From: Microgenomates group bacterium
GTDB lineage: Bacteria > Patescibacteriota > Microgenomatia > UBA12405
Length of the DNA stretch: 64,000 bases
Direction: 5' to 3'
Assembly: GCA_049303675.1 (NCBI GenBank)
Contig: JBAQNJ010000001.1
Span: forward strand, 71,494 to 135,493
Of the stretch, positions 1,675 through 46,228 are shown one piece after another (positions within the stretch are counted from its first letter, which is position 1; each line of letters starts with the position of its first letter). The notes under the pieces are model-generated. The model had not been told where the DNA came from. It saw only the letters and a list, made by a program, of their open reading frames with translations, and searched no databases. The position numbers were made by a program, and so were the translations under genes.

Positions 1675-4600
1675 GTGACTCGCCTCTCCTATAAATCACT
1701 TTTTATTATCCTCGTCTTTTTACTCATTCCCATTTTATTTTTATTAAAAATAAATCAAAAAGGCAAAACAGTTTTGGCGGATTGGTGGAATGATAGTTGG
1801 ACCTATCGCCAAGCCATCAATATTTCGACCCACAGTGTCGGTGAAACCAATGTTTACATCACCACTACTATCAATATTGGCACCACCACCAAAGCCCAAA
1901 CCGACGACGGTGATTTTCGTTTTACTACTACCTCCGGCCAACTATTAGACTATTACATATCCTCGGGCGCTGGCACTACAGCCCCTACTTTTCATGTTCT
2001 TATCGATTCTTACCCTGCAGGAGCTCAAACTGTTTATGCCTATTATGGCAATCCCAGCGCCACTAACGGTTTTTCTGCCTCCGATTTTACCACTGCCGCC
2101 AACAATTCCACCATTAGCTCATATTCTACCGAAGAAACCGGAGGAAGTCCCGTCGCCTGGTGGAAATTTGATGAAGGGGTGGGGACAAGTGCCTTCGATT
2201 CTAGTCCCAACCAATTAAATGCTCGACTTTCCGGCTCAACCTTACCCACTTGGACATCTGAAGATCAATGTCTTAGTGGTAAATGCCTTTACTCGTCCGG
2301 TGTTGGTTATATTACTTCTGCCAACAGTTCGGTCAATAATTTTGGTACCAACAGCTTCACCGTCAGCGTTTGGATTAAGCCCCAAGATTTTACCTATCCC
2401 AAAACATCTTTTGCTTTTTTGAAAGGCAATGCACCATACATTCTTGGACCAACACGCGCCGGGTGGTCAATCGCTGATGGTTACACCGCCAGTGGTGCCG
2501 CCATCGTCATTAATGACGGTACCAGTATGGTCAGCACCACCTTAACTTTTAATTCCAGTTCCCGACCTACCGATTTTATTAATAAATGGACCCATTTAAC
2601 TTATGTTTTTAATCGCACTACCAATCTTGTTTATGCCTATGTCAATGGTGTGCAACAAAACAACACCGTTAATATTGCTTCAGTTACTGGATCAATCAGT
2701 AACACCTCTCCGCTCTACGTTGGTTACGGTACTGGCTGGACCTACAAAGGTTTTTTTGACGACGTTCGTCTCTACCCCTACGCCCGCACCGCTACCCAAA
2801 TAAAACAAGATTATAATGCTGGTGTTGCCAATATGGGCGGACAACAAATTAACAAATCATCATCTGACGGTCTGGTCGGTTATTGGAAATTCGATGAAGG
2901 TGTCGGCACCACATCTGCCGATTCATCGGGTAATTCTAATCTCACTACCTTCGGCACCGGCTCTTCCTCACCCGGCTGGATTGGTGGAAAATTTGGTGTT
3001 GGAACAAGCTTCGGAGGTATCAACAAAGTTGACGTTGGATCTGCAAATTCACTAAACATAGTTGGCGACATGACACTATCAATTTGGGTAAACCCAAAAA
3101 ATGCAAGTGGATGGGAAGGTCTCGCTTCAAAATGGGGAGATTCATGGGCTTGGGCACTAGATACAGCTACACATCGTAATGCGTTATACATCAATGGTTG
3201 GAATTACAGCAACTCAAGTATTCCTGCAAACCAATGGAGCCATCTTGCAGTTGTTTACAAAGATTCTGACAATAAAGTATATTTTTATTTAAATGGAGTA
3301 CCAGATGGGACATCAACTCAGTTATCAAACCAAGGCACTTCTGGTATTGTTACTCTTGGATATTGGGGCAATAACTATTTTTATTCTGGACTATTAGACG
3401 AAGTCCGCATCTACAATAAAGCCCTAAATCCCACCGAAATAAAGGCATTATATGAATATGCCCCCGGGCCAGTTGGCTATTGGAAATTCGATGAAGGTGT
3501 CGGTTCTACTGTCTTTGACTCAAGTGGTAATTCAGGCAACGGTGGATGGCAAGGTACCCTAGGAAATCAATGGGCTTCTGGAAAAATCGGCAAAGCCGGA
3601 AATTTTAATGGTAGTAATAACTACCTAAATTTAGGCACTAACCTCGGTAATTATACCGACAATTTTACAGTTTCCTCTTGGATTAAAACTGGTACTAATA
3701 ACGTTCGTATTCTTGGTCGACGGGACACACCTAGCGGCACTCAATATGATTTATATCTTCAAAGCACTACTGGCAAAGCAGCTTTTTTTGATGGCACAAC
3801 CCAATATGCCGGAACATCTAATCTAGCCAATAATCAGTGGCATTTTGTGTCTTGGGTTTTCAATGGCGCTAATTCTAAAATCTATGTTGACGGTATTGCT
3901 GAAGCCACTTTTACAGTCTCCACTACCTCAAAAAATATTAGCACTATCATTGGTGGCTGGGACAATGGAGTCAGTGGACTTTTTAATGGTCTTATGGATG
4001 ACCTTAAAATTTACAACTATGCCCGTACTCCAGAACAAATAATTCAAGATATGTCCGCCAGCGGAGGATCCGCCTTTGGTGGAGGCAACAAATTTGCTTC
4101 ACCTATTGTCTGGTACAAATTTGACGAAGGTTATGGAACTGTCGCCAACAATTCTGGTATCGGTGGAACTATCAACGGCACCCTTAGAACGGGCTCCTCC
4201 TCCCCCACTTGGGTCTCCGGCAAAATCAACAAAGGTTTAAGCTTTGATGGAAGCAATGATTTAATATCAGTAGCCGATAACGCATCTCTAAATACAACCC
4301 AAGATTACAGTATTTCCATGTGGATATATAACCAAGCTGGATCAGCAAATTATCCTACTCTGATAAATCGAGCCTCACAATCGGGAGTTAATGGATTTTT
4401 TTGGATATATACCACCGGAACTAGTGAAACCGATTTAAACTTTCAATATGCCAACGGCAGCAACTATGTTACAGAATTGTTTTCTGGCGCACTTCGACAA
4501 AATGTTTGGGACCATATCAATTTTACATTCAACAATACCACCAAAGAATTAAAATTATACGTCAACGGAAAACAGTTTAGCACCACCAGAACTCTCACAA

Positions 4601-6192
4601 CACCTCTTCCTGTTGATGATGGAATATTATATTTTGGTTCTTATCAAACCAATCCAAATATTTATGCCTTTAAAGGCATAATAGACGAATTTAAACTATA
4701 TAATTATGCCCTAAGTTCGGACGAAATTAAACAAGATTACAACCAAGGCGCCGCCTTTGTTTTTGGTAATTCCTCTCAAACCATCGGTGGTACCACCACC
4801 TCCCTCGACTATTGCATCCCCGGTGACACCTCCCCTTGCGCCGCTCCCATTGCCGAATATAAATTCGACGAAGGTGTAGGCACTACCGCCTTTGATACTA
4901 GTAGTAATAATTGGCCACTTCCCCTAGGCGTCAATACTTCCTCACCTTCATGGACAATTGGCAAAGTCGGTAAAGCACTCTATTTTAATGGTGATGATTA
5001 TGTTGGATATAATGATAATGGAACTATTGCAAGTGATACTGGACCCGTAACCATTAATGCCTGGGTTAAAACTACCTCGAATCAACAAGGTGGTATTGTC
5101 TCCCGATACGGAAATTCGAGCACTTGGACATATAGCCTTTACATGGATTCAAACGGCAAAGCAAACTTTAATCGATCAGCCTCTACTCCCTGGTCAACAA
5201 CCGTAACCAGTAGTCAATCCATCAACAATAACAATTGGAATTTTATCACTGCCAAATACGACGGTATTTCAATGCAGTTATATATTAATAGCATCGCAGA
5301 TAACTCTCTACCGGAAACCCGCAATTCTCAAACACCTGGTCCGTGGTCATTTTGTATCGGCAGTGAACATTATGTATGTTCCAGTACCAATTACCACGGT
5401 CACTTTACTGGTTCTATCGATCAAGTTCGTATCTACAACTACGCCCGCACCCCCGCCCAAATTGCCTACGACTATAACAAAGGCGGTCCAGTTGGATACT
5501 GGAAATTTGATGAATGTCAAGGAATTGTGGCACACAATTCCGCAGACCTCGCCGCAGGCGGGTCAAGTCTTGACGGCATAATCGCCATTGGTGCCAATGG
5601 CACTCAAAATTCCCTCGGCACTTGTCAAGTCGGCACTTCCGCCGCTTGGACCTCTGGCGCCACTGGAAAAATAAATAGTAGTCTCAATTTCGACGGCACC
5701 GATGATTATGTCCAAATCGGAACCTCAAACCCCGTTACCGGTTCAAGTCCATTCACTTTGGCTAGTTGGTTAAAAGTAGGCACCCATTCCAACTATGGCC
5801 TTGCTTTTTATATTGGCGGCGCCACTTCCGGCCAATCCGCCTGGCTTGGTTGGACAACTAGCGTCCAACAAGGTACATCAAATTCAATTGGTGGAGGTTT
5901 TTACGGCACTAATTATGGATCAGGGATAACTGATAATAATTGGCACCACGTAGTTTTGACCTATGCTGGTGGTACAGGAGCTGCAGTTTATCTTTATGTT
6001 GATGGAATTCAAAAAGTCTCTACCACCTACACTGCCAGTTTAGCTGCGACTTCAATAATGATGGGTAAAGCTAATACCGGCACTGCCTATTGGTATAACG
6101 GGCAACTTGACGATGCTCGTGTCTACAATTATGCTCTCACTGCCACTCAAGTCAAAACCCTCTACAACGGCGGCGCCATAAACTTTAGATAG
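1675..6192 (+). CDS. Membrane-anchored giant lectin-like surface protein: N-terminal TM, then a DUF2341-like domain, then six tandem LamG (Laminin_G_3/concanavalin A-like) domains
   Basis: The start codon is GTG. The N-terminal TM segment is LFIILVFLLIPILFLL. The DUF2341-like stretch reads 'W.YR..INI...DGDFRFT..SGQLLDYYI...........VYAYYGNPSA'. Six repeats carry the LamG_3 hallmarks '(V/I)xxWKFDEGxGTxxxDSSGN' ... 'W.H.....N.....LYVNG' ... '(F/L/I)D(D/E)(V/F)R(I/L)YNxAL(S/T)..(E/Q)I' at approximately aa 155, 400, 610, 830, 1060 and 1280. Confidence 0.85.
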   Translation: MTRLSYKSLFIILVFLLIPILFLLKINQKGKTVLADWWNDSWTYRQAINISTHSVGETNVYITTTINIGTTTKAQTDDGDFRFTTTSGQLLDYYISSGAGTTAPTFHVLIDSYPAGAQTVYAYYGNPSATNGFSASDFTTAANNSTISSYSTEETGGSPVAWWKFDEGVGTSAFDSSPNQLNARLSGSTLPTWTSEDQCLSGKCLYSSGVGYITSANSSVNNFGTNSFTVSVWIKPQDFTYPKTSFAFLKGNAPYILGPTRAGWSIADGYTASGAAIVINDGTSMVSTTLTFNSSSRPTDFINKWTHLTYVFNRTTNLVYAYVNGVQQNNTVNIASVTGSISNTSPLYVGYGTGWTYKGFFDDVRLYPYARTATQIKQDYNAGVANMGGQQINKSSSDGLVGYWKFDEGVGTTSADSSGNSNLTTFGTGSSSPGWIGGKFGVGTSFGGINKVDVGSANSLNIVGDMTLSIWVNPKNASGWEGLASKWGDSWAWALDTATHRNALYINGWNYSNSSIPANQWSHLAVVYKDSDNKVYFYLNGVPDGTSTQLSNQGTSGIVTLGYWGNNYFYSGLLDEVRIYNKALNPTEIKALYEYAPGPVGYWKFDEGVGSTVFDSSGNSGNGGWQGTLGNQWASGKIGKAGNFNGSNNYLNLGTNLGNYTDNFTVSSWIKTGTNNVRILGRRDTPSGTQYDLYLQSTTGKAAFFDGTTQYAGTSNLANNQWHFVSWVFNGANSKIYVDGIAEATFTVSTTSKNISTIIGGWDNGVSGLFNGLMDDLKIYNYARTPEQIIQDMSASGGSAFGGGNKFASPIVWYKFDEGYGTVANNSGIGGTINGTLRTGSSSPTWVSGKINKGLSFDGSNDLISVADNASLNTTQDYSISMWIYNQAGSANYPTLINRASQSGVNGFFWIYTTGTSETDLNFQYANGSNYVTELFSGALRQNVWDHINFTFNNTTKELKLYVNGKQFSTTRTLTTPLPVDDGILYFGSYQTNPNIYAFKGIIDEFKLYNYALSSDEIKQDYNQGAAFVFGNSSQTIGGTTTSLDYCIPGDTSPCAAPIAEYKFDEGVGTTAFDTSSNNWPLPLGVNTSSPSWTIGKVGKALYFNGDDYVGYNDNGTIASDTGPVTINAWVKTTSNQQGGIVSRYGNSSTWTYSLYMDSNGKANFNRSASTPWSTTVTSSQSINNNNWNFITAKYDGISMQLYINSIADNSLPETRNSQTPGPWSFCIGSEHYVCSSTNYHGHFTGSIDQVRIYNYARTPAQIAYDYNKGGPVGYWKFDECQGIVAHNSADLAAGGSSLDGIIAIGANGTQNSLGTCQVGTSAAWTSGATGKINSSLNFDGTDDYVQIGTSNPVTGSSPFTLASWLKVGTHSNYGLAFYIGGATSGQSAWLGWTTSVQQGTSNSIGGGFYGTNYGSGITDNNWHHVVLTYAGGTGAAVYLYVDGIQKVSTTYTASLAATSIMMGKANTGTAYWYNGQLDDARVYNYALTATQVKTLYNGGAINFR

Positions 6193-6303
6193 GCTTAGTT
6201 TCCATTAAATATTATCAAAAAAACAAGCTATCACTCATCACCAATATCTGCCAATATATCTATCCCCAATATATCAATTACAACTTTACTAGCTCAAATA
6301 AAA

Positions 6304-6750
6304 CTAATTTCTAAAAGTTACCTTAATCGTTTTGTTCAACGCCGTCCCCTCCACCACTCCTGTTAACTCAAATGTCCCTTCCTTGTTTGATTTAATGGCA
6401 AATGACACCTTACCATCAGTATTGGTCGTCGCTACCGCTGGAATAATATCCTCCATTCCTTCCAACATAACCTGCTTATTGGGAACTCCCTTGCTATTCT
6501 TATCCAAGATAAAGACATTCACAATACAATCATCTGTGCCATTAGCCTTGGCCAATATCTTCTGGCCCAAGATAGTTGAATCGCCCAGAGATACCATAGT
6601 GGCGGGTGCCGCCTTCGTCAGCGTAATCAAAGCTCTTGGCACCACGTAAGCCGCCATAAATACAATAAAGACGATTGCTACTACAATTCCCCCAACCTTT
6701 AGATACAAACCAGTGTTTGAATTCATAAAATATGATACCACAAAAGTCAA
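6304..6750 (-). CDS. Small membrane-anchored Big_1-like Ig-domain protein, paralogous to the gene at 627..1031
   Basis: It has an N-terminal TM segment (IVVAIVFIVFMAAYVV) followed by a single Ig-like domain, and ends in ..KTIKVTFRN just as 627..1031 ends in ..TVKVTFY. It lies convergent with the LamG gene. Confidence 0.6.
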   Translation of the reverse strand: MTFVVSYFMNSNTGLYLKVGGIVVAIVFIVFMAAYVVPRALITLTKAAPATMVSLGDSTILGQKILAKANGTDDCIVNVFILDKNSKGVPNKQVMLEGMEDIIPAVATTNTDGKVSFAIKSNKEGTFELTGVVEGTALNKTIKVTFRN

Positions 6751-7387
6751 TTAACAGAAAAATACTATTATTGCTAATGAAAAAATAATTAATATTTTAC
6801 CGTTAATCAGCCAAAAATAAAATAATCAGGACCCATTCCCCTACTTCCTATTTCACCGTCTATGCTCACTCAATACTAACTATAACACATCAGTTAAACT
6901 CTATCCTAAATAGTCTATCTATATCATCAACTCCCTATCAAAATTAACAACCATAATTTACCTCAATATATCAAATTTTAGTCAAAATACTCCAATTTTA
7001 TCTATCAATTAGTATCATACTATCTTAACCGCACTTCTCCGCAAACAACTATAAATTTAACTATCTAGTTGGCTATTAATAGATATCTATAGCCATACAT
7101 TGATAGTAGAAAAATATTCGTGTAAACAATTGTGAAAGTTAACCGCAGCCACTATACGGGGATAAAACTATATCATCCATACTATCAAAATATATCAGTT
7201 TCTACCTATTTTTAGCCTGTTGACACTCTTTTCCTAATAGTAGATATTTAATATATTAATCATTCAGCTTGATAATTATGTATAAAAAATATAATTCCAA
7301 ACCTAATAATTTATCACCGCTTCTCGAACGGCTCGCCCCCCTTCTTATCGTCGCTGCGTCGTTTGTTTGGCTCTGGAGATAAATTTT

Positions 7388-7951
7388 ATGAACTATCTCC
7401 CCCAGTTTAAAATTTGGCTTGAGCAAAAGGGCTATTCCGACTCTACCAGCCGCAACTATCTCGCCGATCTGGGTAAGTATCTTGAATATATCAATCACCT
7501 TCCCCAACGTGTCTCGATGGACATCTCGTCAGATCCTGAGCCATCCGTTGGGCACATTTTGTCCGCTGACATCGTCGGGCTCTATGTATCCTACCTCACC
7601 GATAAAAACAACTCTTCTCGCTACTTAGCATCCCTCCGTCTGTTTTGCCAGTTTGCCCTCGATCAGCATCTGATAACTCAAAACCCATTTAAGTCAATTT
7701 ACCGTCCCCCTCGATCCCCTGAATTATCCGACCTGGTTACTCAATATGAAACCCACCTCCTCAAGCACAATACCCCTCCAGCCACTATTCGCAACTACAT
7801 CAATGACCTACACCAATATATCAGTTGGTTAGAATCAAAACCCACCCTACCCTCCCTTGAAAAGGGAGGCCAAACTTTTACTTCTTCCGTTACAAGCTCC
7901 CCTTCATCAAGGGGAGATGCCCAAAGGGCAGAGGGGTTTTTTGAATCTTAA
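7388..7951 (+). CDS. Tandem phage-integrase core-binding (N-terminal SAM-like) domains with no catalytic domain. This is most likely the true 5' end of the giant gene, separated from it by a 1-nt frameshift.
   Basis: The first repeat is 'FKIWLEQKGYSDSTSRNYLADLGKYLEYI ... YVSYLTDKNNSSRYLASLRLFCQFALDQHLITQNP', a complete XerD-like core-binding fold. A second copy begins at 'YETHLLKHNTPPATIRNYINDLHQYISWL' and continues in the giant-ORF frame as 'QRLSQYADYLKSQGLSDSSIRRKLSSLSSFQKYLVKKKLINSP'. The ORF track starts at TTG 7367, and the ATG at 7388 is preceded by GGAG. The ORF overlaps 7857..37634 in another frame. Confidence 0.55.
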   Translation: MNYLPQFKIWLEQKGYSDSTSRNYLADLGKYLEYINHLPQRVSMDISSDPEPSVGHILSADIVGLYVSYLTDKNNSSRYLASLRLFCQFALDQHLITQNPFKSIYRPPRSPELSDLVTQYETHLLKHNTPPATIRNYINDLHQYISWLESKPTLPSLEKGGQTFTSSVTSSPSSRGDAQRAEGFFES

Positions 7952-40570: not shown

Positions 40571-40572
40571 TA

Positions 40573-40627
40573 ACTATTTTTTACTGTTAACTGTTTACTG
40601 TTAACTGTTAACAGTTTACTATTAATC
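40573..40627. promoter_or_regulatory. Intergenic tandem or palindromic 'TACTGTTAACTGTT' repeats, including the 16-bp palindrome AAACTGTTAACAGTTT
   Basis: The sequence is tttttactgttaactgtttactgttaactgttaacagtttactatt. It lies between the 984-aa and TPR genes. Related words occur at 47417-47445, 48738-48766 and 58296-58320. Confidence 0.4.
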
Positions 40628-40628
40628 T

Positions 40629-41864
40629 ATGTCCCTCGATCTCACTCCCGACCAACAACAGCAACTCCGTGACCTTGGGATTAATATATCCCAATCTACT
40701 ACAAATATATCAAATGAAATCAAAACCACTCATATTTCTCCCCCATCTACTGGCCAAATTTTACCTCCCACCATAGTTAGCAGTCAGTCAAATCGACTGC
40801 TGCCACTGCTATCTATTTCCGGTCTTACCCTCATTTCTTTCGGTGGACTAATATTATTCAAGACCAAATCAAATCAGCAAATTCCCAGTCCACTAATCAC
40901 TGATCACTCATCACCAATCACTGCTCCGACGCCCACCCAAGTCCCCAAATCCATCCAACACTATTTGCTTACCTCACAACAATACTTTACGCAGGCTCTT
41001 ACCGAGCAATCAAATCAACAAAAGGATCAATTGGCCACTCTGCTCAACCAAGCAATAACCACCGCTACCGCTGCCATCACCGATTTCCCCTCTGACTATC
41101 GTGGCTACGAGCAACGTGGTCGCATTTACCAAAGTCTCATTGATTCCCAACCCCAGACTCTCTCCCTAGCTATCACCGATCTCACTCACGCCTCTACTCT
41201 CAATCCCAACTCTGCCGAAATTACTCGTACTCTGGCAACTCTCTATGCTCGTCAGGGCAATGCACAGAGTACTATCAACTATCTTGCCCAAACCGTCAGC
41301 CTCGAGCCCACTAGGGCCCAAAATTTTTATGATTTAGCCCGTATTCAGCAACAAGTCGGCCAGCTCCCTGCCGCTCTCGACACCTACAATCGTCTTATTT
41401 CCCTAGTTTCCGATCCCACTCAACGCACCCAAATAGAATCCGAAAAATCAGCCATCGAACGCCTCATTTCCCAATCTTCAAATAATAAAAATCCAGTTTC
41501 TAGTTTCCAGAATCCAGTTTCCCCTTCCCCAACCGCTCCTCCACAAACAGAAGGCTCCCTTATTCAGGCCGATGCTGGTACAGGATTAATTATCGCCGCT
41601 CCTGAAACTAGCAAAGATATTTCTGTTCACAATCTAGTCGATTCCAATTCTCTCTCCGGTACCGCCACTCTTCCGGCCAACCAATTATCTCTTACAATTT
41701 CTAATGACAAAATCACTTCCACCTCCCAAGTCTATCTCACAGTTGTTAAAGGTGGCAAAAATCTCTCTCTCCAAGTTCTCAGCAAATCCCTCGGTTCCTT
41801 TGTTGTCGGTCTCGATTCTCCTACTACCGAAAATATCGAGTTCAAGTGGTGGATCATAAATTAA
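40629..41864 (+). CDS. TM-anchored TPR-repeat protein whose C-terminal ~100-aa domain is shared with the giant protein and ends in ...KWWIIN
   Basis: The TM segment is 'LLPLLSISGLTLISFGGLILF'. TPR-like helices include 'YEQRGRIYQSLIDSQ', 'EITRTLATLYARQGNAQSTINYLAQTVSLEP' and 'FYDLARIQQQVGQLPAALDTYNRLISL'. The C-terminus aligns with the giant's: 'AD.G.......S..SGTA.LPA..L.L.I.N.KI...S.VYLT.V.......L......G.F..(G/A)LD.P...(E/D)I.(F/I).WWIIN'. Confidence 0.75.
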   Translation: MSLDLTPDQQQQLRDLGINISQSTTNISNEIKTTHISPPSTGQILPPTIVSSQSNRLLPLLSISGLTLISFGGLILFKTKSNQQIPSPLITDHSSPITAPTPTQVPKSIQHYLLTSQQYFTQALTEQSNQQKDQLATLLNQAITTATAAITDFPSDYRGYEQRGRIYQSLIDSQPQTLSLAITDLTHASTLNPNSAEITRTLATLYARQGNAQSTINYLAQTVSLEPTRAQNFYDLARIQQQVGQLPAALDTYNRLISLVSDPTQRTQIESEKSAIERLISQSSNNKNPVSSFQNPVSPSPTAPPQTEGSLIQADAGTGLIIAAPETSKDISVHNLVDSNSLSGTATLPANQLSLTISNDKITSTSQVYLTVVKGGKNLSLQVLSKSLGSFVVGLDSPTTENIEFKWWIIN

Positions 41865-41891
41865 TTACGAATTAAAAATTACGAATTTCAA

Positions 41892-42251
41892 GTGAAGGAT
41901 AACATTCTTCTAAATAAATCATTCAATTTTGCCATCAGAATTGTTAATGTTTACAAACATCTAAAATATAAGAAATATGAATCAATTCTCTCAAAACAAT
42001 TATTAAGAAGTGGTACTTCTATCGGCGCCAATATCGAAGAGGCCATTGGGGGACAATCAGAAAATGATTTTTCTTCTAAATTATCAGTAGCTTACAAAGA
42101 AGCTCCAGAAAGCAACTATTGGATAAAATTACTAGCTAATACCGGCTATTTATCAAATTCCGAAGCTCAGTCTCTGACCAATGATATTACCGAAATACTC
42201 AAGATAATTGGCAAAATACAACTAACTATCAAGTCAAAACGTAATTCGTAA
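41892..42251 (+). CDS. Four-helix-bundle protein of the 23S rRNA-intervening-sequence protein family (TIGR02436-like)
   Basis: The start codon is GTG. The sequence 'KQLLRSGTSIGANIEEAIGGQSENDFSSKLSVAYKEAPESNYWIKLLANTGYL' matches the family core (QL.RS..SI..NI.EG.GR.S..DF..FL.IA.GS..E....L.LA..LGYI). Confidence 0.75.
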   Translation: MKDNILLNKSFNFAIRIVNVYKHLKYKKYESILSKQLLRSGTSIGANIEEAIGGQSENDFSSKLSVAYKEAPESNYWIKLLANTGYLSNSEAQSLTNDITEILKIIGKIQLTIKSKRNS

Positions 42252-42254
42252 TTT

Positions 42255-44231
42255 TTAATTCGTAATTATTTTTGTTGGTACCGCGCTTGGTTCCGGCGAC
42301 ACCACCGCTGCCGGTGGATTTAGTTCTCCATTTGGATTAGCCACTACCGATTTGGCATTCCCTGTTGGTAATGGTTTTGAAGTCTCCAGCGTCTCTGCTA
42401 CTTTCTTTTGTTCTTCCTGCCTCACAGCCGCTTTTTTATTGGCTTCATCGAGTTCCTTTACCCATGTCGCCAATTCCTTGCTGGCAATTTCATAATCACC
42501 TGAGTCTATTGGCACCAGAGTAATTGCTTGTTGTAATCTCGCTACCGCCTCTGTCAATTTGCCCAATTGTTTGGCACTATGCGCCCAGTTGTACCAACCA
42601 TTAGCATAATTATTTTTGTTTAGCAGTACCGCCTCAAACACTCTATCCGCTTCATCATATCTCCCCGAGGCATATACCAATCCCCCCAGCTCCAATCTTG
42701 ATGTTGCATTTACCGGTTCCATCATCACCGCTTGTTCATAGGCTTGAAAAGTCCAGTCAGCCGCTCCATCCACCACTCCAATCAATTGTCTATATATCAC
42801 CGCCAGATTCAGCCAATAAGTCGGATTGTTTTTGTCGAGACTAATTGCCGCCTTGGCCTCGTTAACTGATTGCTGAATTAGTCCTGACGCCTTCTGTTTG
42901 TCATCATTCGTCAGTTCTTTATTTGCTAGCACCGCCCCTGCCATAGTCAAATAAGTCCCTGAAATTGACTTATGATAATCAGCCATCTTCGGCAACTGCT
43001 CTATTGCTTTCAACTGCCAATCGATATTTGGTTCCAGTATTGACTGACGTACGAGATACTCTCCTCTAACTATTTTATACATTCCATAGCCACCGCCTAG
43101 ACCGATCAGCATTACCATTCCCATTATCAATATTTTCCCCATGTCTAGGCTCTGCTTTTCCACATAAATTGTTAGACTTGTTTTTATTTCTCTATTCTCC
43201 ATCCCCGCCACCAGCCAAAATAGCAGCCACACTCCCATAAAATGATAAGGCAATATTACTACTGCCAACCCAGCCAAAATCAACCAAACTCCCCTAAAAT
43301 CTTTTTTTTGTTTAGCGACATTACTCGCCATCAATATACCAATACCCAATCCTCCCAAGCCCATTTCCGTCCAAAAGTGTAACAGGCCTACTGACGAAAA
43401 CTTAAACCAGTTTGCCCAAAATGGAGTCAAATTATAACTCGCCGGTCGATAGGCAAAAAACGCTTCTACAAAATTCCCCGACCCCACCCCCCACAAGGGT
43501 ACCCTCTTAAATGACTCCACCATAATTACCCATGATGTTTGCCAATCAAGTAGCGCCATCCCTCCCGTTTTTGTCAATCGAAAGACATCGACCATCGCCA
43601 CTAATAAAAGAAACGCGGCTACTCCCGCCTCCCACCAGTAATTATCTTCATTTTTCAATTTCCTATACAATCTTTTTCCCCATTCCACCACCAAAAATAT
43701 TATTAAAATAATTTCATTATAAAGTGATCCGGTAATTGACCAGTTCGAGGTAATGTTAAAAACTGGATTATTTTTTGGCCATATAATCGGCAATTTTGAC
43801 GATGGCCATAAAAACACAGTTATTGCCAACATTCCCGATACTATTCCAGCAGCTGTCAACCAATTTAGTTGCTGTTTTCGATCTGTCTCAGTTTGTAACC
43901 AGATAAATAGCCACAGCCACCAAGCACTCAGTGTTCCCACTCCTCCAAAATCAGTTACCGATCTCATTTTGACACCGGCTTCCATTTTCCACCACCATTG
44001 TATCCATGTCCACAACACCAATGCCCCCATCAACCACCACATTTTATTTACTTTTACTTTTTCTTCTCGGCCACTAATTAGGTTCCCCCCCCATATCAAC
44101 AATCCTAGTAGGGCACTAGTCATCAATATCCAGTTTTTGCCAAAACCAAATGAATCGACCACTATCGGTAAAAATGATATTGGCAATACCAACATCATCA
44201 ACCGCACATAATATTTCAGTACAGTATCCAT
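42255..44231 (-). CDS. Polytopic membrane protein of the Wzy_C family (O-antigen ligase / O-oligosaccharyltransferase-like) with a C-terminal TPR domain
   Basis: More than 10 predicted TM helices are present. The Wzy_C-like core reads 'PLWGVGSGNFVEAFFAYRP.....HFWTEMGLGGLG'. The C-terminal TPR segment reads 'YWLNLAVIYRQLIGVVDGAADWTFQAYEQAVMMEPVN....YNWAHSAKQLGKLTEAVARLQQAITLVP'. It is a tandem paralog of 44258..46228. Confidence 0.7.
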   Translation of the reverse strand: MDTVLKYYVRLMMLVLPISFLPIVVDSFGFGKNWILMTSALLGLLIWGGNLISGREEKVKVNKMWWLMGALVLWTWIQWWWKMEAGVKMRSVTDFGGVGTLSAWWLWLFIWLQTETDRKQQLNWLTAAGIVSGMLAITVFLWPSSKLPIIWPKNNPVFNITSNWSITGSLYNEIILIIFLVVEWGKRLYRKLKNEDNYWWEAGVAAFLLLVAMVDVFRLTKTGGMALLDWQTSWVIMVESFKRVPLWGVGSGNFVEAFFAYRPASYNLTPFWANWFKFSSVGLLHFWTEMGLGGLGIGILMASNVAKQKKDFRGVWLILAGLAVVILPYHFMGVWLLFWLVAGMENREIKTSLTIYVEKQSLDMGKILIMGMVMLIGLGGGYGMYKIVRGEYLVRQSILEPNIDWQLKAIEQLPKMADYHKSISGTYLTMAGAVLANKELTNDDKQKASGLIQQSVNEAKAAISLDKNNPTYWLNLAVIYRQLIGVVDGAADWTFQAYEQAVMMEPVNATSRLELGGLVYASGRYDEADRVFEAVLLNKNNYANGWYNWAHSAKQLGKLTEAVARLQQAITLVPIDSGDYEIASKELATWVKELDEANKKAAVRQEEQKKVAETLETSKPLPTGNAKSVVANPNGELNPPAAVVSPEPSAVPTKIITN

Positions 44232-44257
44232 CCTATTTATTTCGTAATTCGTAATTT

Positions 44258-46228
44258 TTAATTCGTAATTTCCTTTGTCGGCTCTGGCGACACTACTGCC
44301 GCTGGAGGGTTCAATTCACCACTAGGCGCTGGAATTACCGCCTTACCAGTGGGCAACGGTTTCGGAGTCTCCAGTGTTTCTGCCTGCTTGGCCGCCTGTT
44401 GTGCCGCCACTTTTTTAGTTAATTCTTCCAATTGTTTTTTCCAATCCATCAACTCTTTATTGGCTTTTTCAAAGTCACCCGAATCAGCTGGCACTAGGGC
44501 CACTGCCTGAGCTAGCCTATCGACGGCATCTGGCAATCTATTGAGTTTATACGCAGTATAAGCCCAGTTATACCACGCATTAGCAAAATCATTTTTACTC
44601 ATTACTACCGCCTCAAAAACTCTATCGGCCTCGTCATATCGTCCAGCAGCAAAGAGTAGTCCTCCCATTTCCAATCTCGAGACTGGATTAGCTGGTTCCA
44701 GTGCTACCGCTTGTTGATATGCTTGGAAGCTCCAGTCAGCTGAGCCATCAACTACACCCACAATTTGTCGATAAATCGAAGCCAAATTGAGCCAATAACT
44801 CGAGTTATTGCCCTCGAGAGCAATCGCTGATTTCCCCTCACGCACTGCCTGCTGCACCAACACCGATGCCTTTTGCTTATCTTCATCAGTCATTTCCTTG
44901 TTAGCCAAGAGAACACTGGCCAACGACAAATTGGTTTGAGAATAAACCCTTCGATATTCCGCCATCATTGGCAGCATTCCAATTGCCTTAATTTGCAGAT
45001 TGTATGTTCCTCCACCATCATTTTTAGCCGCTGCCACCATCGACTGTCTCATATATATTTCCCCCGATATTATCCTATACATCCAGTAGCCACCACCTCC
45101 AATCACCAACAATAAAAATATCTCCACCGCCCAAATTGCCACATCCACCTTATTTTCCGCCACCGCCACCCCCAATTCAATTTTTTTTGATTTACTTTCA
45201 ATTCCAGCCAATAGCCACATCATCAACCAGATAGTTACAAAATTAACTGGCAATAACACCACCGACAATCCCCACCCAATCAGTCGCCATCCCTCAAAAT
45301 CCTTCTTTTGACCCCATATTTTTATGCCCATCAACACTCCCAATCCCAGCCCCACCAGTCCCAATTCAGTCCACAAATTCAATATTCCATTTGAGGCAAA
45401 TTTGAATCCATTTGCCCAATATTTAGTCAAATTGTAGCTTACCGGTCTCCATGAGAAGAATGCCTCGCTAAAATTCCCCGCCCCCACACCCCAAATTGGG
45501 CTAGTTTTTAGGGCCTCAACTGCCACCACCCACGAAGTCCTGCCGTCCAAATTCACCCAGCCTGTCTTATACATTCGAAAAGCTCCCAACATTAACACCA
45601 GCGACAGGACGGCTATCACCACTGCTTCTTTAATATAATCTTGTTCTCCTCTTAATCTATCCGTCAGCCTCTTTCCCCACTCCACCACCAAAAACAGCAT
45701 CAACAACACTTCGTTTAACAGTGATCCAGCAATCGACCAGCCAGCCGCAATGTTTACCAGTGGATTGTCTTTTGGCCATACTATAGGTAGTTTTGATACT
45801 GGCCACAAGAATAATCCCAATGACAATACTCCGGCTATCAATCCAGCAGCCGTCAACCAGTTTAGTTGCTGTTTTCGATCTGTCTCAGTTTGTAACCAGA
45901 TAAATAGCCACAGCCACCAAGCACTCAGTGTTCCCACTCCTCCAAAATCAGTTACCGATCTCATTTTGACACCTGGACTCAATCTCATCCACCATCCCAA
46001 CCACGCCACAACCACCATCATTCCCAAAATCCACCAGACATTATTTACTTTTATCTCTCTCTCTTTATCTACTGCTACATTTATACCCCACAATAATATT
46101 CCCACTAGGGCTCCCACCATCAATATCCAATTTTTCCCTAGCCCAAATGAATCGACCACTATCGGTAAAAATGATATTGGTAACACCAGCATCATTGCTC
46201 GGACATAGTATTTGAATATATTTTTCAT
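44258..46228 (-). CDS. Wzy_C-family (O-antigen ligase-like) membrane protein with a C-terminal TPR domain, paralogous to 42255..44231
   Basis: It has the same architecture, with core 'PIWGVGAGNFSEAFFSWRP ... LWTELGLVGLGLGVL' and TPRs at the C-terminus. Blocks of nucleotide identity to the paralog include 43860-43990 against 45850-45980, which are essentially identical. Confidence 0.7.
   Translation of the reverse strand: MKNIFKYYVRAMMLVLPISFLPIVVDSFGLGKNWILMVGALVGILLWGINVAVDKEREIKVNNVWWILGMMVVVAWLGWWMRLSPGVKMRSVTDFGGVGTLSAWWLWLFIWLQTETDRKQQLNWLTAAGLIAGVLSLGLFLWPVSKLPIVWPKDNPLVNIAAGWSIAGSLLNEVLLMLFLVVEWGKRLTDRLRGEQDYIKEAVVIAVLSLVLMLGAFRMYKTGWVNLDGRTSWVVAVEALKTSPIWGVGAGNFSEAFFSWRPVSYNLTKYWANGFKFASNGILNLWTELGLVGLGLGVLMGIKIWGQKKDFEGWRLIGWGLSVVLLPVNFVTIWLMMWLLAGIESKSKKIELGVAVAENKVDVAIWAVEIFLLLVIGGGGYWMYRIISGEIYMRQSMVAAAKNDGGGTYNLQIKAIGMLPMMAEYRRVYSQTNLSLASVLLANKEMTDEDKQKASVLVQQAVREGKSAIALEGNNSSYWLNLASIYRQIVGVVDGSADWSFQAYQQAVALEPANPVSRLEMGGLLFAAGRYDEADRVFEAVVMSKNDFANAWYNWAYTAYKLNRLPDAVDRLAQAVALVPADSGDFEKANKELMDWKKQLEELTKKVAAQQAAKQAETLETPKPLPTGKAVIPAPSGELNPPAAVVSPEPTKEITN

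What the first reader, a model, noticed from the sequence alone, without database searches (positions are those of the whole stretch)
1675..46228. Locus-level view: a co-oriented cell-surface gene cluster of lectin, giant fibre, beta-helix/FN3, TPR/CTD and Wzy_C genes
Over about 45 kb the genes on the plus strand are a DUF2341+6xLamG protein, the giant fibre, a translationally coupled Gly-rich/FN3 protein (TAATG overlap), a TPR protein with the shared CTD, and a four-helix-bundle protein. These are followed by two convergent Wzy_C-TPR membrane enzymes. The same LamG domain appears both as six copies in the first gene and once embedded in the giant gene. Small Big_1 proteins flank the lectin gene. 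This looks like one functional unit, perhaps for adhesion, episymbiotic attachment or a surface layer. Its composition does not match a described system.
Basis: inference. Interest (0 to 1): 0.7.

Follow-up and report, generated by a model that had tools for sequence, protein, structure and literature searches.

The report
Giant surface-fibre gene cluster in Shapirobacteria
A tiny-genome (about 1 Mb) Candidate Phyla Radiation bacterium spends 3% of its DNA on one 9,900-residue, phage-tail-fibre-like surface fibre, and this gene sits in a gene neighbourhood kept in over 120 related loci, so it is probably an attachment organelle built from known parts in a new arrangement.

Summary
The window is from a Microgenomates/Shapirobacteria MAG. 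All the listed genes exist, including the 29.8-kb ORF, the TAATG overlap, the shared C-terminal domain (CTD) and the flanking Big_1 genes.

- Wzy_C is detectable only at family level, not in the two window proteins themselves.
- FN3 could not be confirmed.
- The four-helix-bundle gene sits in a slot where that family and DUF559 come and go; the window's own DUF559 gene lies elsewhere, upstream of the lectin gene.
- The 978-aa Gly-rich gene is optional cargo.
- A key gene was missed. A 194-aa protein (7367-7951) overlaps the fibre start and carries the first half of an integrase-type SAM-like domain; the fibre's cytoplasmic tail carries the second half. The two genes are fused in 7 of 80 relatives.

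Gene order (LamG / Big_1 / Big_1 / SAM-like / fibre / [cargo] / TPR-CTD / Wzy_C-TPR / LysM-M23 / Rho) is conserved in 42 species genomes and 80 metagenome contigs. The housekeeping neighbours are equally conserved.

The fibre repeats match solved Bdellovibrio MAT fibres and phage tail fibres. An internal autoprocessing-chaperone domain (G2-like here, S74 in orthologues) precedes a conserved module ending in an unnamed CTD found in about 3,900 protein clusters.

Best reading: a membrane-anchored trimeric adhesive fibre locus. It is a new variant of a known kind. Function is inferred, not shown.

The parts
627..1031 (+). Big_1a: small N-terminally anchored protein with one bacterial Ig-like (Big_1) domain
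   Evidence: Pfam Big_1 E 5.2e-16. Hydrophobic N-terminal segment. Homologue upstream of the fibre in 50/80 metagenome loci.
1675..6192 (+). Lectin-type surface protein: N-terminal anchor, DUF2341, six Laminin_G_3 domains
   Evidence: A homologue lies upstream of the Big_1/SAM-like/fibre genes in 18 metagenome loci and in L005. In other genomes DUF2341/LamG proteins sit in the slot after the fibre instead.
6304..6750 (-). Big_1b: small anchored Big_1 protein, divergent from the fibre operon
   Evidence: Pfam Big_1 E 8.7e-12. Found immediately upstream of the SAM-like gene, on the opposite strand, in 57/80 loci.
7220..7248 (+). Best sigma-70-like promoter match (TTGACA-17-GATATT) ahead of the SAM-like/fibre genes
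   Evidence: 10 of 12 matches. This is a consensus match only.
7367..7951 (+). SAM194: cytoplasmic protein with one complete integrase-type N-terminal SAM-like (core-binding) domain plus the first half of a second one. Its stop overlaps the fibre start.
   Evidence: Phage_int_SAM_1 at aa 14-100 and Phage_int_SAM_4 profile 7-37 at aa 129-159. In 80 loci the two genes are in different frames with 1-20 nt overlap in most of 68, fused in one ORF in 7, and in the same frame with a stop in 5. Joining it conceptually to the fibre gives one complete domain (profile 2-83/83, 61 bits).
7845..7936 (+). Hairpin-rich insertion of about 90 nt in the 3' end of SAM194; absent from the orthologues aligned
   Evidence: Alignment A5 shows a ~35-aa extension only in the window. 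RNA fold gives three hairpins, z = -3.1. Single copy in the window. Similar inserts lie at the same junction in other lineages.
7941..37634 (+). Giant fibre gene. Likely start is TTG 7941, by analogy with orthologues; the public call starts at ATG 7917; the maximal ORF starts at 7857.
   Evidence: 73 GNVGIGT-type motifs. Matches solved Bdellovibrio MAT fibres 8OND/8OJN/8OML and PHROG tail-fibre families.
7956..8081 (+). Fibre cytoplasmic tail: second half of the split SAM-like domain
   Evidence: Phage_int_SAM_1 profile 42-83/83 at ORF aa 34-75.
8190..8258 (+). Single predicted membrane anchor of the fibre (FFTKYLLAASILILLGGLSYTLY)
   Evidence: Read from the sequence; position computed. Conserved in orthologues.
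14304..14876 (+). LamG domain embedded in the fibre stalk
   Evidence: BLASTP to all six LamG copies of the first gene, best E 8e-13. Weak Laminin_G_2 Pfam hit. No counterpart inside relatives' fibres.
22797..26726 (+). Gly/Ala-rich repeat core (aa 4981-6290; 183- and 136-aa periods), specific to this genome
   Evidence: Composition G 25-31%, A 11-17%. DNA repeat families with spacings of 549/408 nt. No Pfam or PDB hit. No match in 126 related loci.
35847..36344 (+). Internal G2-like autoprocessing/intramolecular-chaperone domain, starting at the motif A-D-I-A-E-R-Y (ORF aa 9331)
   Evidence: AF2 pLDDT >90 for exactly this block. 9/48 homologues hit Pfam Peptidase_G2. The family profile hits the phi29 gp12 autochaperone 3GQH at its residue 1, E 0.007. 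Orthologues carry D[FLY]AE or a true Peptidase_S74 at the same place. The window protein itself has no Pfam hit.
36897..37169 (+). Short beta-helix in the conserved C-terminal module
   Evidence: AF2 strands 503-553, pLDDT 75-83. Weak bactofilin-like Pfam hits here and in orthologues.
37347..37631 (+). C-terminal domain (CTD) ending WWIIN; unnamed family
   Evidence: AF2 pLDDT ~90. Profile search found 3,927 cluster representatives at E<=1e-3, and the domain is at or within 14 residues of the C-terminus in all 150 best hits. No Pfam or NCBIfam model hit.
37634..40570 (+). 978-aa anchored Gly-rich protein, start overlapping the fibre stop (TAATG). Optional cargo of the locus.
   Evidence: AgmC_N-like 78 bits, below cut-off. 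Homologues carry Gly_rich_2 / Ig_Rha78A_N / LamG. Present in ~11 of 42 species loci. The slot is variable.
40629..41864 (+). TPR-CTD protein: short cytoplasmic N-terminus, membrane anchor near aa 58-77, TPR repeats, and the CTD (nt 41586-41861)
   Evidence: TPR hits. CTD similarity E 3e-15. Orthologues (49-65% identity in the best segment) found in 42 species genomes; wherever both are visible they lie after the fibre.
41892..42251 (+). Four-helix-bundle (23S_rRNA_IVP / TIGR02436) gene; probably a passenger, not part of the system
   Evidence: This slot holds a 4HB gene in 7 loci, a DUF559 gene in 5, and nothing in most.
42255..44231 (-). Wzy_C-family membrane domain + TPR; the diverged tandem duplicate
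   Evidence: 59% identical to its neighbour. 38-54% identical to orthologues, against 42-68% for the other copy. All 43 related loci have a single copy.
44258..46228 (-). Wzy_C-family membrane domain + TPR; the orthologue-like copy (candidate O-oligosaccharyltransferase or ligase)
   Evidence: 25/69 family members hit Pfam Wzy_C. Profile hit to the solved oligosaccharyltransferase 9RMK, E 6.9e-7. AF2 model pLDDT 86, polytopic helical N-domain + TPR. Adjacent to the locus in every relative, including distant L003 where it is inverted.
46288..47382 (-). LysM + M23 peptidoglycan peptidase; a constant neighbour whose membership is uncertain
   Evidence: Pfam. Adjacent to Wzy_C-TPR in all loci that extend that far, but so is Rho.

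Best explanation
The locus encodes a membrane-anchored, phage-tail-fibre-like surface fibre with its partners. It is most likely an attachment organelle of an episymbiotic Shapirobacterium.

CORE UNIT (three genes)
1. SAM194, a small cytoplasmic protein.
2. The fibre. It has a cytoplasmic tail, one membrane anchor and a very long extracellular stalk of GNVGIGT-type repeats like those of Bdellovibrio MAT fibres and phage tail fibres. The stalk carries lineage-specific inserts (a LamG lectin domain and a Gly/Ala-rich block). It is followed by a variable pre-tip region, an internal autoprocessing chaperone domain and a conserved C-terminal module ending in the CTD.
3. A membrane-anchored TPR protein with the same CTD.

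INFERRED MECHANISM
- SAM194 and the fibre tail each supply half of a helical SAM-like domain, so they dock on each other inside the cell.
- The polypeptide is exported N-to-C.
- The C-terminal chaperone domain nucleates trimerisation and then cleaves itself at the D-x-A-E motif (S-D-x-x-x-K in orthologues). This releases the CTD-bearing module and exposes the tip.
- The TPR-CTD protein may help gather or hold the C-termini at the membrane.

LOOSER ASSOCIATES
Lectin (DUF2341/LamG), Gly-rich and Big_1 proteins are co-located surface cargo that varies between genomes. The neighbouring Wzy_C-TPR enzymes probably transfer glycan to surface proteins, or ligate a surface polymer, as PglL and WsfB do.

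SHOWN VERSUS INFERRED
Shown here: the domain homologies, the gene order, the overlaps and fusions, and the CTD distribution. Inferred: trimerisation, cleavage, docking, glycosylation and adhesion.
For: - Fibre homology. PDB hits to MAT fibres: 8OND E 4.8e-9 with the single sequence and 2.2e-21 with the family profile, plus 8OJN, 8OML, 8ON4 and 8OL4. PHROG tail-fibre families at E 5.9e-27 and 2.8e-23. MAT fibres are surface-exposed trimeric adhesins (PMC10769870).
- Anchor and split domain. The genes are fused in 7/80 loci.
- Chaperone domain. The DxAE motif sits 595 aa from the end and the AF2 confident block starts exactly there. 9/48 homologues hit Peptidase_G2, and phi29 gp12 autochaperone 3GQH is hit at E 0.007. 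8/10 tested orthologues have a genuine Peptidase_S74 domain at the equivalent position.
- CTD. Shared with the TPR protein. At or within 14 residues of the C-terminus in 150/150 best hits.
- Conservation pattern typical of fibres. The N-terminal ~480 aa are 50-68% identical, the post-chaperone module 37-59%, and the pre-tip region only 28-36%.
- Synteny.
- Wzy_C family evidence. Wzy_C + TPR is the architecture of the known O-oligosaccharyltransferases PglL and WsfB (PMC2943079). The fibre is 23% Ser+Thr.
- Giant surface proteins are already proposed as host-attachment devices in another CPR bacterium (PMC8080830).
Against: - There are no expression, localisation or binding data.
- The window's own fibre has no Pfam G2 hit. 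The 3GQH hit is marginal. Foldseek on the C-terminal model gave only weak tailspike matches, E 0.04-0.3.
- In canonical fibres the chaperone is terminal. Here 430-500 further residues follow it, so cleavage and release are an extrapolation.
- The Wzy fold was not confirmed structurally, because both fold searches were swamped by TPR hits. No His or Arg is invariant in the family alignment. No glycan-synthesis genes were seen among the proteins scanned.
- The Wzy_C-TPR genes are co-directional with Rho/M23, not with the fibre.
- Housekeeping neighbours are equally syntenic, so order alone proves little.
- The host of these bacteria is unknown.
Confidence: 0.5

Rival explanations
1. Collinearity only. 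The 45 kb is a stretch of conserved genome order in a slowly rearranging lineage. Only the overlapping or fused pairs (SAM194-fibre, fibre-978) and perhaps fibre/TPR-CTD work together. Wzy_C-TPR and LysM-M23 belong to a general envelope/housekeeping transcription unit with Rho. The lectin and Big_1 genes are independent surface proteins.
For: - Rho, RadA and S1 are as syntenic as the surface genes.
- Wzy_C-TPR, M23 and Rho are co-directional with gaps of 26-59 nt (coordinates).
- Big_1b and DUF559 are on the opposite strand.
- The slot contents vary, and one locus even holds a metal-ATPase-like gene there.
Against: - In distant L003 the Wzy_C-TPR gene is inverted yet still adjoins the CTD/LamG/Gly-rich genes.
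- The order survives divergence to 35-65% identity and many insertions.
- The CTD and the LamG domain are each shared between neighbouring genes.
Confidence: 0.22
2. Structural coat rather than adhesin. The fibre and its neighbours form a fibrous surface layer or spacer that shapes or protects the envelope, with no specific host receptor.
For: - The stalk is highly repetitive and low in charge: K+R+D+E 8.8%, G 17%, S+T 23%.
- The gene has expanded to 3% of the genome.
- CPR cells with fibrous surfaces are described (PMC8080830).
- The S-layer O-glycosylation enzymes WsfB/WsaB have the same Wzy_C(+TPR) make-up.
Against: - The closest solved relatives are adhesive, receptor-binding fibres.
- The pre-tip region is the most variable part, and lectin domains are embedded or adjacent. 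That is the signature of receptor-binding proteins.
- There is one membrane-anchored copy per chain, with no lattice-forming domain recognised.
Confidence: 0.12
3. Transmembrane sensor. The fibre is the extracellular arm of a one-component signalling or DNA-handling device. Its cytoplasmic tandem DNA-binding-type domains couple contact at the tip to DNA or transcription.
For: - Two tandem integrase core-binding-type domains lie on the cytoplasmic side.
- A Daviesbacteria protein with the same membrane anchor, fibre repeats, DxAE motif and CTD has two MerR/HTH_17 domains there instead.
- Another homologue combines Phage_int_SAM_1 with S74 (P0254).
Against: - No DNA-binding test was done.
- Such helical domains can serve as protein-protein modules.
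- Force or signal transmission along a fibre of thousands of residues and a single helix has no precedent.
- One homologue has a pilin-type N-terminus instead (P0202).
Confidence: 0.13
4. Artefact or prophage remnant. The giant ORF is a mis-assembly of repeats, or the genes are leftovers of a phage tail module.
For: - The gene is repetitive, with exact repeats up to ~116 nt.
- Its domains are of phage type.
Against: - Zero in-frame stops over 9,925 codons, against hundreds in the other frames.
- Repeats are diverged, 60-92% identical.
- The 656-aa neighbour gene is recorded on two near-identical contigs of ~998 kb. Only one of them was read, and that locus covers just the last ~3.4 kb of the fibre gene.
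- Single-ORF orthologues of 2.1-4.6 kaa exist, and CTD-family members reach 5.6 kaa.
- No capsid, portal, terminase or baseplate genes are present. The chromosomal context with Rho, RadA, S1 and rRNA is fixed.
Confidence: 0.03

Closest known systems
Bdellovibrio bacteriovorus MAT (mosaic adhesive trimer) fibres (Caulton et al. 2024, PMC10769870; PDB 8OND, 8OJN, 8OML, 8ON4, 8OL4)
   Same: - The repeat unit (…ERMRI.…GNVGIGT..P…LHV…) is homologous: profile E 2.2e-21.
- Both are cellular, not viral, fibres.
- Both are mosaic, with swappable tips.
- Both have subfamilies with an autoproteolytic chaperone.
- Both are proposed to bind another cell.
   Different: - MAT proteins are ~600-1,150 aa, with a signal peptide and a conserved ~130-aa beta-rich N-domain. 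The match to that domain here is only 22 bits against a cut-off of 60.
- The CPR fibre is 2,100-9,900 aa.
- It is anchored by a membrane helix with a cytoplasmic split SAM-like module.
- Its chaperone is internal and is followed by a beta-helix + CTD module.
- It has a TPR partner with the same CTD.
Phage tail fibres/tailspikes with intramolecular chaperones (Peptidase_S74 of endosialidase and T5 pb1; Peptidase_G2 of phi29 gp12, PDB 3GQH)
   Same: - PHROG tail-fibre hits.
- A D-x-A-E (G2) or S-D-x-x-x-K (S74) domain after the variable region.
- Weak fold similarity of the model's C-terminal part (which block was aligned was not reported) to C-terminal domains of phage tailspikes (7EEA, 7W1D, 9K4A).
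   Different: - The fibre is not part of a virion; no phage structural genes are nearby.
- The chaperone domain is not terminal.
- Orthologues alternate between the two unrelated chaperone types at one position.
- Autocleavage is untested.
Wzy_C + TPR O-oligosaccharyltransferases (Neisseria PglL, Paenibacillus WsfB; WsaB with separate TPR protein WsaA)
   Same: - A polytopic Wzy_C-family membrane domain followed by TPR.
- Encoded beside the gene of a large Ser/Thr-rich surface protein.
   Different: - The window proteins fall below Pfam detection.
- The catalytic residues were not identified.
- No glycan-synthesis genes are evident in the window.
- The genes are co-directional with Rho/M23.
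Giant membrane proteins of the CPR predator Vampirococcus lugosii (PMC8080830)
   Same: - A small-genome CPR bacterium investing in very large membrane-anchored proteins.
- These are thought to make a fibrous surface and bind the host.
   Different: - Those are 1,392-4,163 aa with WD40, PKD, integrin, DUF11 and fibronectin domains.
- No tail-fibre repeats, chaperone domain, CTD or SAM-like module are reported.
C-terminal sorting domains such as the T9SS CTD (analogy only)
   Same: A ~90-aa beta-rich domain at or within 14 residues of the C-terminus of many otherwise unrelated large surface proteins. Here it lies beyond a probable cleavage site.
   Different: - No sequence match to any Pfam/NCBIfam CTD model.
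- No outer membrane or T9SS is expected in CPR bacteria.
- No processing has been shown.

Membership tests
MAT (mosaic adhesive trimer) fibre superfamily | Fibre repeats homologous to the solved MAT beta-prism/beta-helix stalks | tested here: met
   phmmer hits 8OND E 4.8e-9 and 8OJN E 1.1e-8. Family profile hits 8OND E 2.2e-21, plus 8OML, 8OJN, 8ON4 and 8OL4.
MAT (mosaic adhesive trimer) fibre superfamily | Signal peptide followed by the conserved ~130-aa beta-rich N-terminal domain (PMC10769870) | tested here: not met
   NCBIfam Bdello_MAT_N scores only 22.4 bits against a cut-off of 60, over aa 157-220. The N-terminus is instead a cytoplasmic SAM-like half-domain plus a membrane anchor.
MAT (mosaic adhesive trimer) fibre superfamily | Homotrimeric assembly and surface exposure | not testable with these tools
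   Only a monomer AF2 model was possible. This needs multimer modelling or experiment.
Peptidase_G2 (phi29 gp12-type) autoproteolytic intramolecular chaperone | Match to the Pfam PF11962 domain | tested here: inconclusive
   No hit for the window protein even at E<=10. 9/48 aligned homologues do hit (best E 6.4e-7). The L001 orthologue has a weak hit on record.
Peptidase_G2 (phi29 gp12-type) autoproteolytic intramolecular chaperone | Asp...Glu motif (D-x-x-E) at the start of the domain, aligned to residue 1 of the released chaperone | tested here: met
   A-D-I-A-E-R-Y at ORF aa 9331. D[FLY]AE in 15/30 orthologues. Profile positions 289-344 align to 3GQH residues 1-53, E 0.007. That D and E are the catalytic pair is taken from my own knowledge of MEROPS family G2.
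Peptidase_G2 (phi29 gp12-type) autoproteolytic intramolecular chaperone | Self-cleavage after trimerisation | not testable with these tools
   Requires expression of the C-terminal fragment and mutants.
Wzy_C / O-antigen ligase family (PglL-, WsfB-type O-oligosaccharyltransferases) | Match to Pfam PF04932 in the membrane domain | tested here: inconclusive
   Not met by either window protein at E<=10. Met by 25/69 orthologues, best E 4.9e-7. The family profile hits the solved oligosaccharyltransferase 9RMK at E 6.9e-7, profile 201-325.
Wzy_C / O-antigen ligase family (PglL-, WsfB-type O-oligosaccharyltransferases) | Polytopic membrane fold of WaaL/PglL type | tested here: inconclusive
Wzy_C / O-antigen ligase family (PglL-, WsfB-type O-oligosaccharyltransferases) | C-terminal TPR domain as in PglL/WsfB | tested here: met
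   TPR hits in both proteins. Literature statement on PglL/WsfB.
Wzy_C / O-antigen ligase family (PglL-, WsfB-type O-oligosaccharyltransferases) | Conserved catalytic His/Arg of the periplasmic loop | not tested
   The invariant columns of A2 include K241, E288 and N266 but no His or Arg. No residue-level alignment to WaaL or PglL was made.
Tyrosine recombinase (XerC/D, phage integrase) | Catalytic C-terminal domain with the RHRY residues | tested here: not met
   Only N-terminal SAM-like (core-binding) domains match; XerC/D models score 41 bits against a cut-off of 335. SAM194 ends after 1.5 such domains, and the fibre continues into a membrane helix. It is not a recombinase.
DUF2341 / LamG (concanavalin-like lectin) surface proteins | DUF2341 and Laminin_G_3 domains above Pfam cut-offs | tested here: met
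   Laminin_G_3 415.9 bits with 6 stretches. DUF2341 29.1 bits against a cut-off of 23.4.
Four-helix-bundle protein TIGR02436 / 23S_rRNA_IVP | Full-length match above cut-off | tested here: met
   TIGR02436 101 bits against a cut-off of 24; PF05635 90.7 bits against 33.8. Membership in the fibre system is rejected because the gene's presence is sporadic.
Pam pilus operon of CPR bacteria (bioRxiv 10.64898/2026.03.03.709456) | PamA/PamB donor-strand pilins and PamC/PamD chaperones | not tested
   No Pam sequences were available to compare. The preprint only notes that a 'tail fibre-like protein' co-localises with pam operons. The Big_1 proteins here are single Ig-like domains with an N-terminal anchor.
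   No family at E<=10 for the whole protein or for its C-terminal thirds, and no PDB sequence hit. Some homologues carry Ig_Rha78A_N, fn3 or Pur_ac_phosph_N.

The most novel reading that the evidence does not exclude
The fibre is not only an adhesin. It is the outer arm of a transmembrane device whose inner arm binds nucleic acid.

Two tandem integrase-type core-binding domains face the cytoplasm. One of them is reconstituted from two polypeptides made by overlapping genes. In Daviesbacteria, two MerR/excisionase-type HTH domains occupy the same place. So two unrelated DNA-binding folds have been recruited to the same position on CTD-bearing fibres.

This would link contact with a host cell directly to the chromosome, to transcription or to DNA uptake. 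In addition, the conserved C-terminal module beyond the chaperone domain, together with the TPR-CTD protein, would define a previously unrecognised assembly/pro-domain system for surface proteins of Microgenomates (about 3,900 protein clusters).
Probability: 0.15. Interest if true: 0.85.

Novelty: new variant of a known kind. Interest (0 to 1): 0.6.

Why it matters
CPR/Patescibacteria make up a large share of bacterial diversity. They are thought to live attached to other cells, yet how Microgenomates attach to anything is unknown.

- **A candidate attachment organelle.** This locus is conserved and can be recognised by sequence. It is a tail-fibre-like protein that reaches 9,900 residues (3% of a ~1 Mb genome). 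Its most variable parts are its stalk (length and inserts) and the region just before the chaperone domain, and its lectin cargo is exchangeable. These are the features expected of a host-range determinant.
- **Three testable oddities.** A helical domain is split between two overlapping genes. An autoprocessing chaperone domain lies inside the protein rather than at its end, and swaps type between orthologues. An unnamed C-terminal domain is shared by about 3,900 protein clusters.
- **Practical use.** If confirmed, these features would give handles for finding hosts (tip and lectin specificities). They would also allow thousands of 'hypothetical' CPR surface proteins to be annotated.

Tried and rejected
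- **Foldseek pdb on the fibre C-terminal model.** No hit at E<=0.001, only weak tailspike C-domains. phi29 gp12 was not recovered by fold.
- **Pfam on the giant protein.** Almost blank.
- **Gly/Ala core.** No PDB sequence hit. It is not related to the Gly-rich domain of the 978-aa protein.
- **Tandem Repeats Finder.** Nothing at score >=80; the repeats are too diverged and too widely spaced.
- **Programmed frameshift joining SAM194 to the fibre.** Considered and rejected as the general mechanism. The frame offset differs between orthologues (+1 in 49, +2 in 19). Start codons overlap the stop in the usual coupling patterns (ATGA, TAATG, TTG..TAA). True fusions exist.
- **Diversity-generating retroelement, suggested by the Avd-like four-helix-bundle gene.** No reverse transcriptase among the proteins scanned, and the gene is sporadic in the slot.
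- **Prophage origin.** No phage structural genes are present.
- **Concerted evolution of the two CTDs.** Rejected. Fibre CTDs are 46-71% identical across genomes but only 28-38% identical to TPR-protein CTDs.
- **Promoter/terminator scans.** They gave one good promoter-like site and no useful terminators.
- **Literature searches.** They found no description of this locus.

Full report
**Source and gene map**

The 978-aa and 656-aa proteins of the window are identical to entries from NCBI MAGs labelled 'Microgenomates group bacterium', on contigs of 998,299 and 998,417 bp. Relatives are almost all labelled Candidatus Shapirobacteria. The window also carries Rho, RadA, S1, 5S and 23S rRNA and tRNA-Ala, so this is chromosomal DNA.

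Two genes were not mentioned: a DUF559 gene (1188-1547, minus strand) and a 194-aa gene (7367-7951).

**Checking each label**

- The first gene has DUF2341 and six Laminin_G_3 domains.
- The giant ORF has no stop in 9,925 codons, while the other five frames have 315-824 stops. The public gene call is 9,905 aa. That is 3.0% of the contig.
- The TAATG overlap with the next gene is exact.
- The 411-aa protein has TPR repeats. Its last ~120 residues align with the end of the giant protein at 33% identity, E 3e-15, and both end in WWIIN.
- The 119-aa protein is a TIGR02436 four-helix-bundle protein.
- The two minus-strand genes are 59% identical paralogues with TPR repeats. Neither hits Pfam Wzy_C, even at E<=10.
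- The Wzy_C label survives at family level only. 25 of 69 orthologues hit Wzy_C. The family profile hits a solved oligosaccharyltransferase, 9RMK, at E 6.9e-7.
- A confident AF2 model (pLDDT 86) could not be used to confirm the fold, because both fold searches returned only TPR proteins.
- FN3 in the 978-aa protein could not be confirmed. Its Gly-rich part resembles the N-domain of AgmC, below cut-off.
- The LamG domain inside the giant protein is 24-37% identical to each copy in the first gene.

**Is the giant ORF an artefact?**

Its internal DNA repeats are 60-92% identical. The longest exact repeat is about 116 nt. Orthologues are single ORFs of 2,106, 2,183, 2,603 and 4,620 aa. Proteins with the same C-terminal domain reach 5,631 aa.

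The ORF is therefore real. Only the exact number of repeat modules needs read-level confirmation. Two parts have no counterpart inside relatives' fibres: the Gly/Ala-rich block (aa 4981-6290) and the embedded LamG. The extreme length thus reflects lineage-specific insertion and expansion.

**What the fibre is**

Pfam is nearly blank for it. Sequence searches against solved structures, however, hit the Bdellovibrio MAT fibres: 8OND, 8OJN and 8OML with the single sequence, and 8OND at E 2.2e-21 with a family profile. PHROGs gives tail-fibre families. MAT proteins are surface-exposed trimeric adhesive fibres with mosaic tips (PMC10769870).

The protein has 73 GNVGIGT-type motifs. It has one hydrophobic anchor at aa 112-134.

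**The internal chaperone domain**

595 residues before the end lies the motif A-D-I-A-E-R-Y. Several lines point to a G2-type autoprocessing chaperone there:

- The AF2 model of the last 744 aa is confident exactly from that motif for about 165 residues, then for a short beta-helix, then for the last ~95 residues.
- Nine of 48 homologues hit Pfam Peptidase_G2.
- The family profile aligns this point to residue 1 of the phi29 gp12 autochaperone 3GQH, at E 0.007.
- Of 30 non-redundant orthologues long enough to examine, 15 have D[FLY]AE at this position.
- Of ten further orthologues scanned (nine of them without that motif), eight have a genuine Peptidase_S74 domain above Pfam's cut-off at the same distance from the end.

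So an autoprocessing chaperone domain is a constant of the family, but its type is exchangeable. Unlike in phage or MAT fibres, it is internal: a conserved coil + beta-helix + CTD module follows it. By analogy (inference), cleavage would release that module.

**The CTD**

A profile of the last ~100 residues finds 3,927 cluster representatives at E<=1e-3, and 1,837 at E<=1e-10, among 1.84 billion proteins. In all 150 best hits the domain ends at or within 14 residues of the C-terminus, in proteins up to 5,631 aa long. No Pfam or NCBIfam model covers it.

In a sample of 55 such proteins, the other domains found are S74, bactofilin-like beta-helix, K1-lyase_C, FG-GAP, DUF2341, Phage_int_SAM and G2.

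The fibre and TPR-protein CTDs are old paralogues. They are 46-71% identical within each type across genomes and 28-38% between types.

**The missed gene and the split domain**

ORF 7367-7951 encodes one complete integrase-type SAM-like (core-binding) domain plus the first half of a second one. The fibre's first ~80 residues carry the second half (Phage_int_SAM_1 profile positions 42-83).

- In orthologues the fibre starts at an ATG, GTG or TTG that overlaps the upstream stop (TAATG, ATGA, TTG…TAA).
- By the same pattern, the window's fibre most likely starts at TTG 7941, 11 nt before the stop at 7949-7951.
- Among 80 loci the two genes are in different frames in 68, most with 1-20 nt of overlap. 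They are fused in one ORF in 7, and in the same frame with a stop between them in 5.
- Joining the window's two products conceptually gives a single complete domain (profile 2-83/83, 61 bits). Natural fusions show the same.

This fission/fusion pattern argues that the two products assemble with each other. No catalytic recombinase domain is present.

A Daviesbacteria protein has the same anchor, fibre repeats, DxAE motif and CTD, but two MerR/HTH_17 domains in the cytoplasmic position. That is why a nucleic-acid-binding role is kept as the novel reading.

**Synteny**

Three contexts of 978-aa homologues showed the same neighbourhood.

A scan of species-representative genomes with the TPR-CTD protein gave 42 loci. 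Mapping the window's proteins onto them shows an order that holds wherever the contig extends far enough: fibre C-module/CTD, then TPR-CTD, then one Wzy_C-TPR gene (minus strand), LysM-M23, Rho, RadA and S1.

- The fibre and TPR-CTD genes are less than 400 nt apart in 19 of 39 loci.
- In 12 of 39 loci the gap exceeds 1.5 kb. It then mostly holds variable anchored surface proteins (Gly-rich, DUF2341, LamG); in one locus it holds a metal-ATPase-like gene.
- The 978-aa gene is therefore optional cargo.
- The slot between TPR-CTD and Wzy_C-TPR holds a four-helix-bundle gene in 7 loci and a DUF559 gene in 5. Genes of these two families come and go there.
- The tandem duplication of Wzy_C-TPR is unique to this genome among 43 loci.

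A metagenome scan with the SAM-like protein gave 80 further loci. Their upstream order is LamG protein, Big_1a (+), Big_1b (-), SAM-like, fibre N-terminus.

In a distant genome (L003, 25-28% identity) the Wzy_C-TPR gene is inverted. It still adjoins CTD-, LamG- and Gly-rich-protein genes, and a pilin-like gene replaces TPR-CTD.

**How far this supports 'one functional unit'**

But the housekeeping genes are equally syntenic. Wzy_C-TPR, M23 and Rho form a co-directional string with gaps of 26-59 nt.

Direct signs of coupling exist only for three pairs: SAM-like/fibre, fibre/978 and fibre/TPR-CTD. I therefore treat SAM-like + fibre + TPR-CTD as the core. Lectin, Gly-rich and Big_1 proteins are co-located, exchangeable surface cargo. 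Wzy_C-TPR is a probable but unproven modifier. Its architecture is that of the O-oligosaccharyltransferases PglL and WsfB, which glycosylate pilin and S-layer proteins (PMC2943079).

**Mechanism proposed (inferred)**

1. The fibre is inserted with its N-terminus inside the cell.
2. Its tail docks SAM194 through the split domain.
3. The chain is exported, so the C-terminal chaperone domain emerges last, close to the membrane.
4. The chaperone domain nucleates trimer formation and cleaves itself.
5. The TPR-CTD protein, anchored beside it and carrying the same CTD, may gather or hold the three C-termini.
6. The mature fibre presents a variable tip and lectin domains.

On the rough ratio of phage T4 long tail fibres (about 0.05 nm per residue, from my own knowledge), 9,900 residues would span several hundred nanometres, more than the width of such cells.

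**Comparison and novelty**

Every part belongs to a known kind: tail-fibre/MAT repeats, S74/G2 chaperones, LamG lectins, Wzy_C-TPR enzymes and TPR scaffolds. What I found no description of is the arrangement:

- the membrane anchor with a split cytoplasmic SAM-like module;
- the internal, type-swapping chaperone domain;
- the widespread unnamed CTD shared with a TPR partner;
- the conserved neighbourhood.

A 2026 preprint on CPR Pam pili mentions only that a 'tail fibre-like protein' co-localises with pam operons. Giant membrane proteins of Vampirococcus are the nearest CPR precedent.

I rate the finding a new variant of a known kind, with interest 0.6.

Noticed in passing
window 7845-7936: A hairpin-rich insertion of about 90 nt (three stem-loops; RNA fold z = -3.1) sits in the 3' end of the SAM-like gene, just before the fibre start. 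It adds ~35 residues (…PSLEKGGQTF…SRGDAQRAEGFF) that are absent from the three orthologues aligned. Inserts coding similar 'PLxKGG'-type peptides occupy the same junction in other lineages, sometimes in frame and fusing the two genes (L051, L062, L065). It could be a small mobile palindromic element or a regulator of translational coupling.
   Followed up: partly
window 41892-42251 and 1188-1547; loci L007, L009, L022, L026-L028, L030, L035, L037, L040, L043, L046: Small four-helix-bundle (23S_rRNA_IVP) and DUF559 (Vsr-like endonuclease fold) genes alternate in the same intergenic slot between TPR-CTD and Wzy_C-TPR in different species. They behave like small selfish or mobile genes that favour this spot. 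A DUF559 gene also recurs just upstream of the LamG gene, in the window and in L057, L058 and L120.
   Followed up: partly
loci L008, L013, L016, L017, L020, L022, L031, L046 versus window 35847-36344: Orthologous fibres carry either a Peptidase_S74 or a G2-type (DxAE) chaperone domain at the same position. Both are followed by the same conserved C-terminal module. This is a swap between two unrelated autoprocessing domains.
   Followed up: yes
protein P0220 (Candidatus Daviesbacteria, 888 aa); also P0254 and P0202: Proteins sharing the fibre C-module have other N-termini. P0220 has two MerR/HTH_17 domains followed by a membrane anchor. P0254 combines Phage_int_SAM_1 with S74. P0202 has a prepilin N-methylation motif but does not end in the CTD.
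   Followed up: partly
window 42255-46228: The tandem duplication of the Wzy_C-TPR gene is specific to this genome; all 43 related loci have a single copy. The copy nearer M23 (44258-46228) is the more orthologue-like. DNA identity between the two copies reaches 78-81% at the 5' ends.
   Followed up: yes
whole window: There is strong strand compositional asymmetry. GC skew is -0.3 to -0.4 on the plus strand whichever strand the genes are on, and it is weakened only inside the Gly-rich giant gene. A similar disparity was reported for a complete Microgenomates genome (PMC7143001, title and abstract only).
   Followed up: no
window 40571-40628: The intergenic region between the 978-aa and TPR-CTD genes consists of repeated, partly palindromic ACTGTT(A/T)A units (…TACTGTTAACTGTTTACTGTTAACTGTTAACAGTTTACT…). 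It may be an operator or an RNA structure.
   Followed up: no
window 58338-62195: The 23S rRNA match spans 3,202 nt against a 2,925-nt model, so it probably contains insertion(s). 5S follows it and tRNA-Ala precedes it. No 16S rRNA gene lies within the window.
   Followed up: no
locus L003 14548-15273: In a distant relative the position of the TPR-CTD gene is taken by a 241-aa Cys-rich protein with a prepilin-like N-terminus (…KKAYSLLEILITISILILL…), and the Wzy_C-TPR gene is on the same strand as the surface-protein genes.
   Followed up: no
locus L040 5909-8137: A 743-aa ORF sits in the cargo slot between fibre and TPR-CTD. Its N-terminus looks like the metal-binding end of a P-type ATPase (judged by eye only). 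The slot therefore also accepts unrelated genes.
   Followed up: no
window 45-599: A 184-aa ORF upstream of Big_1a is Pro-rich at its N-terminus and has a hydrophobic C-terminal segment. It has no Pfam hit and its status as a gene is uncertain.
   Followed up: no
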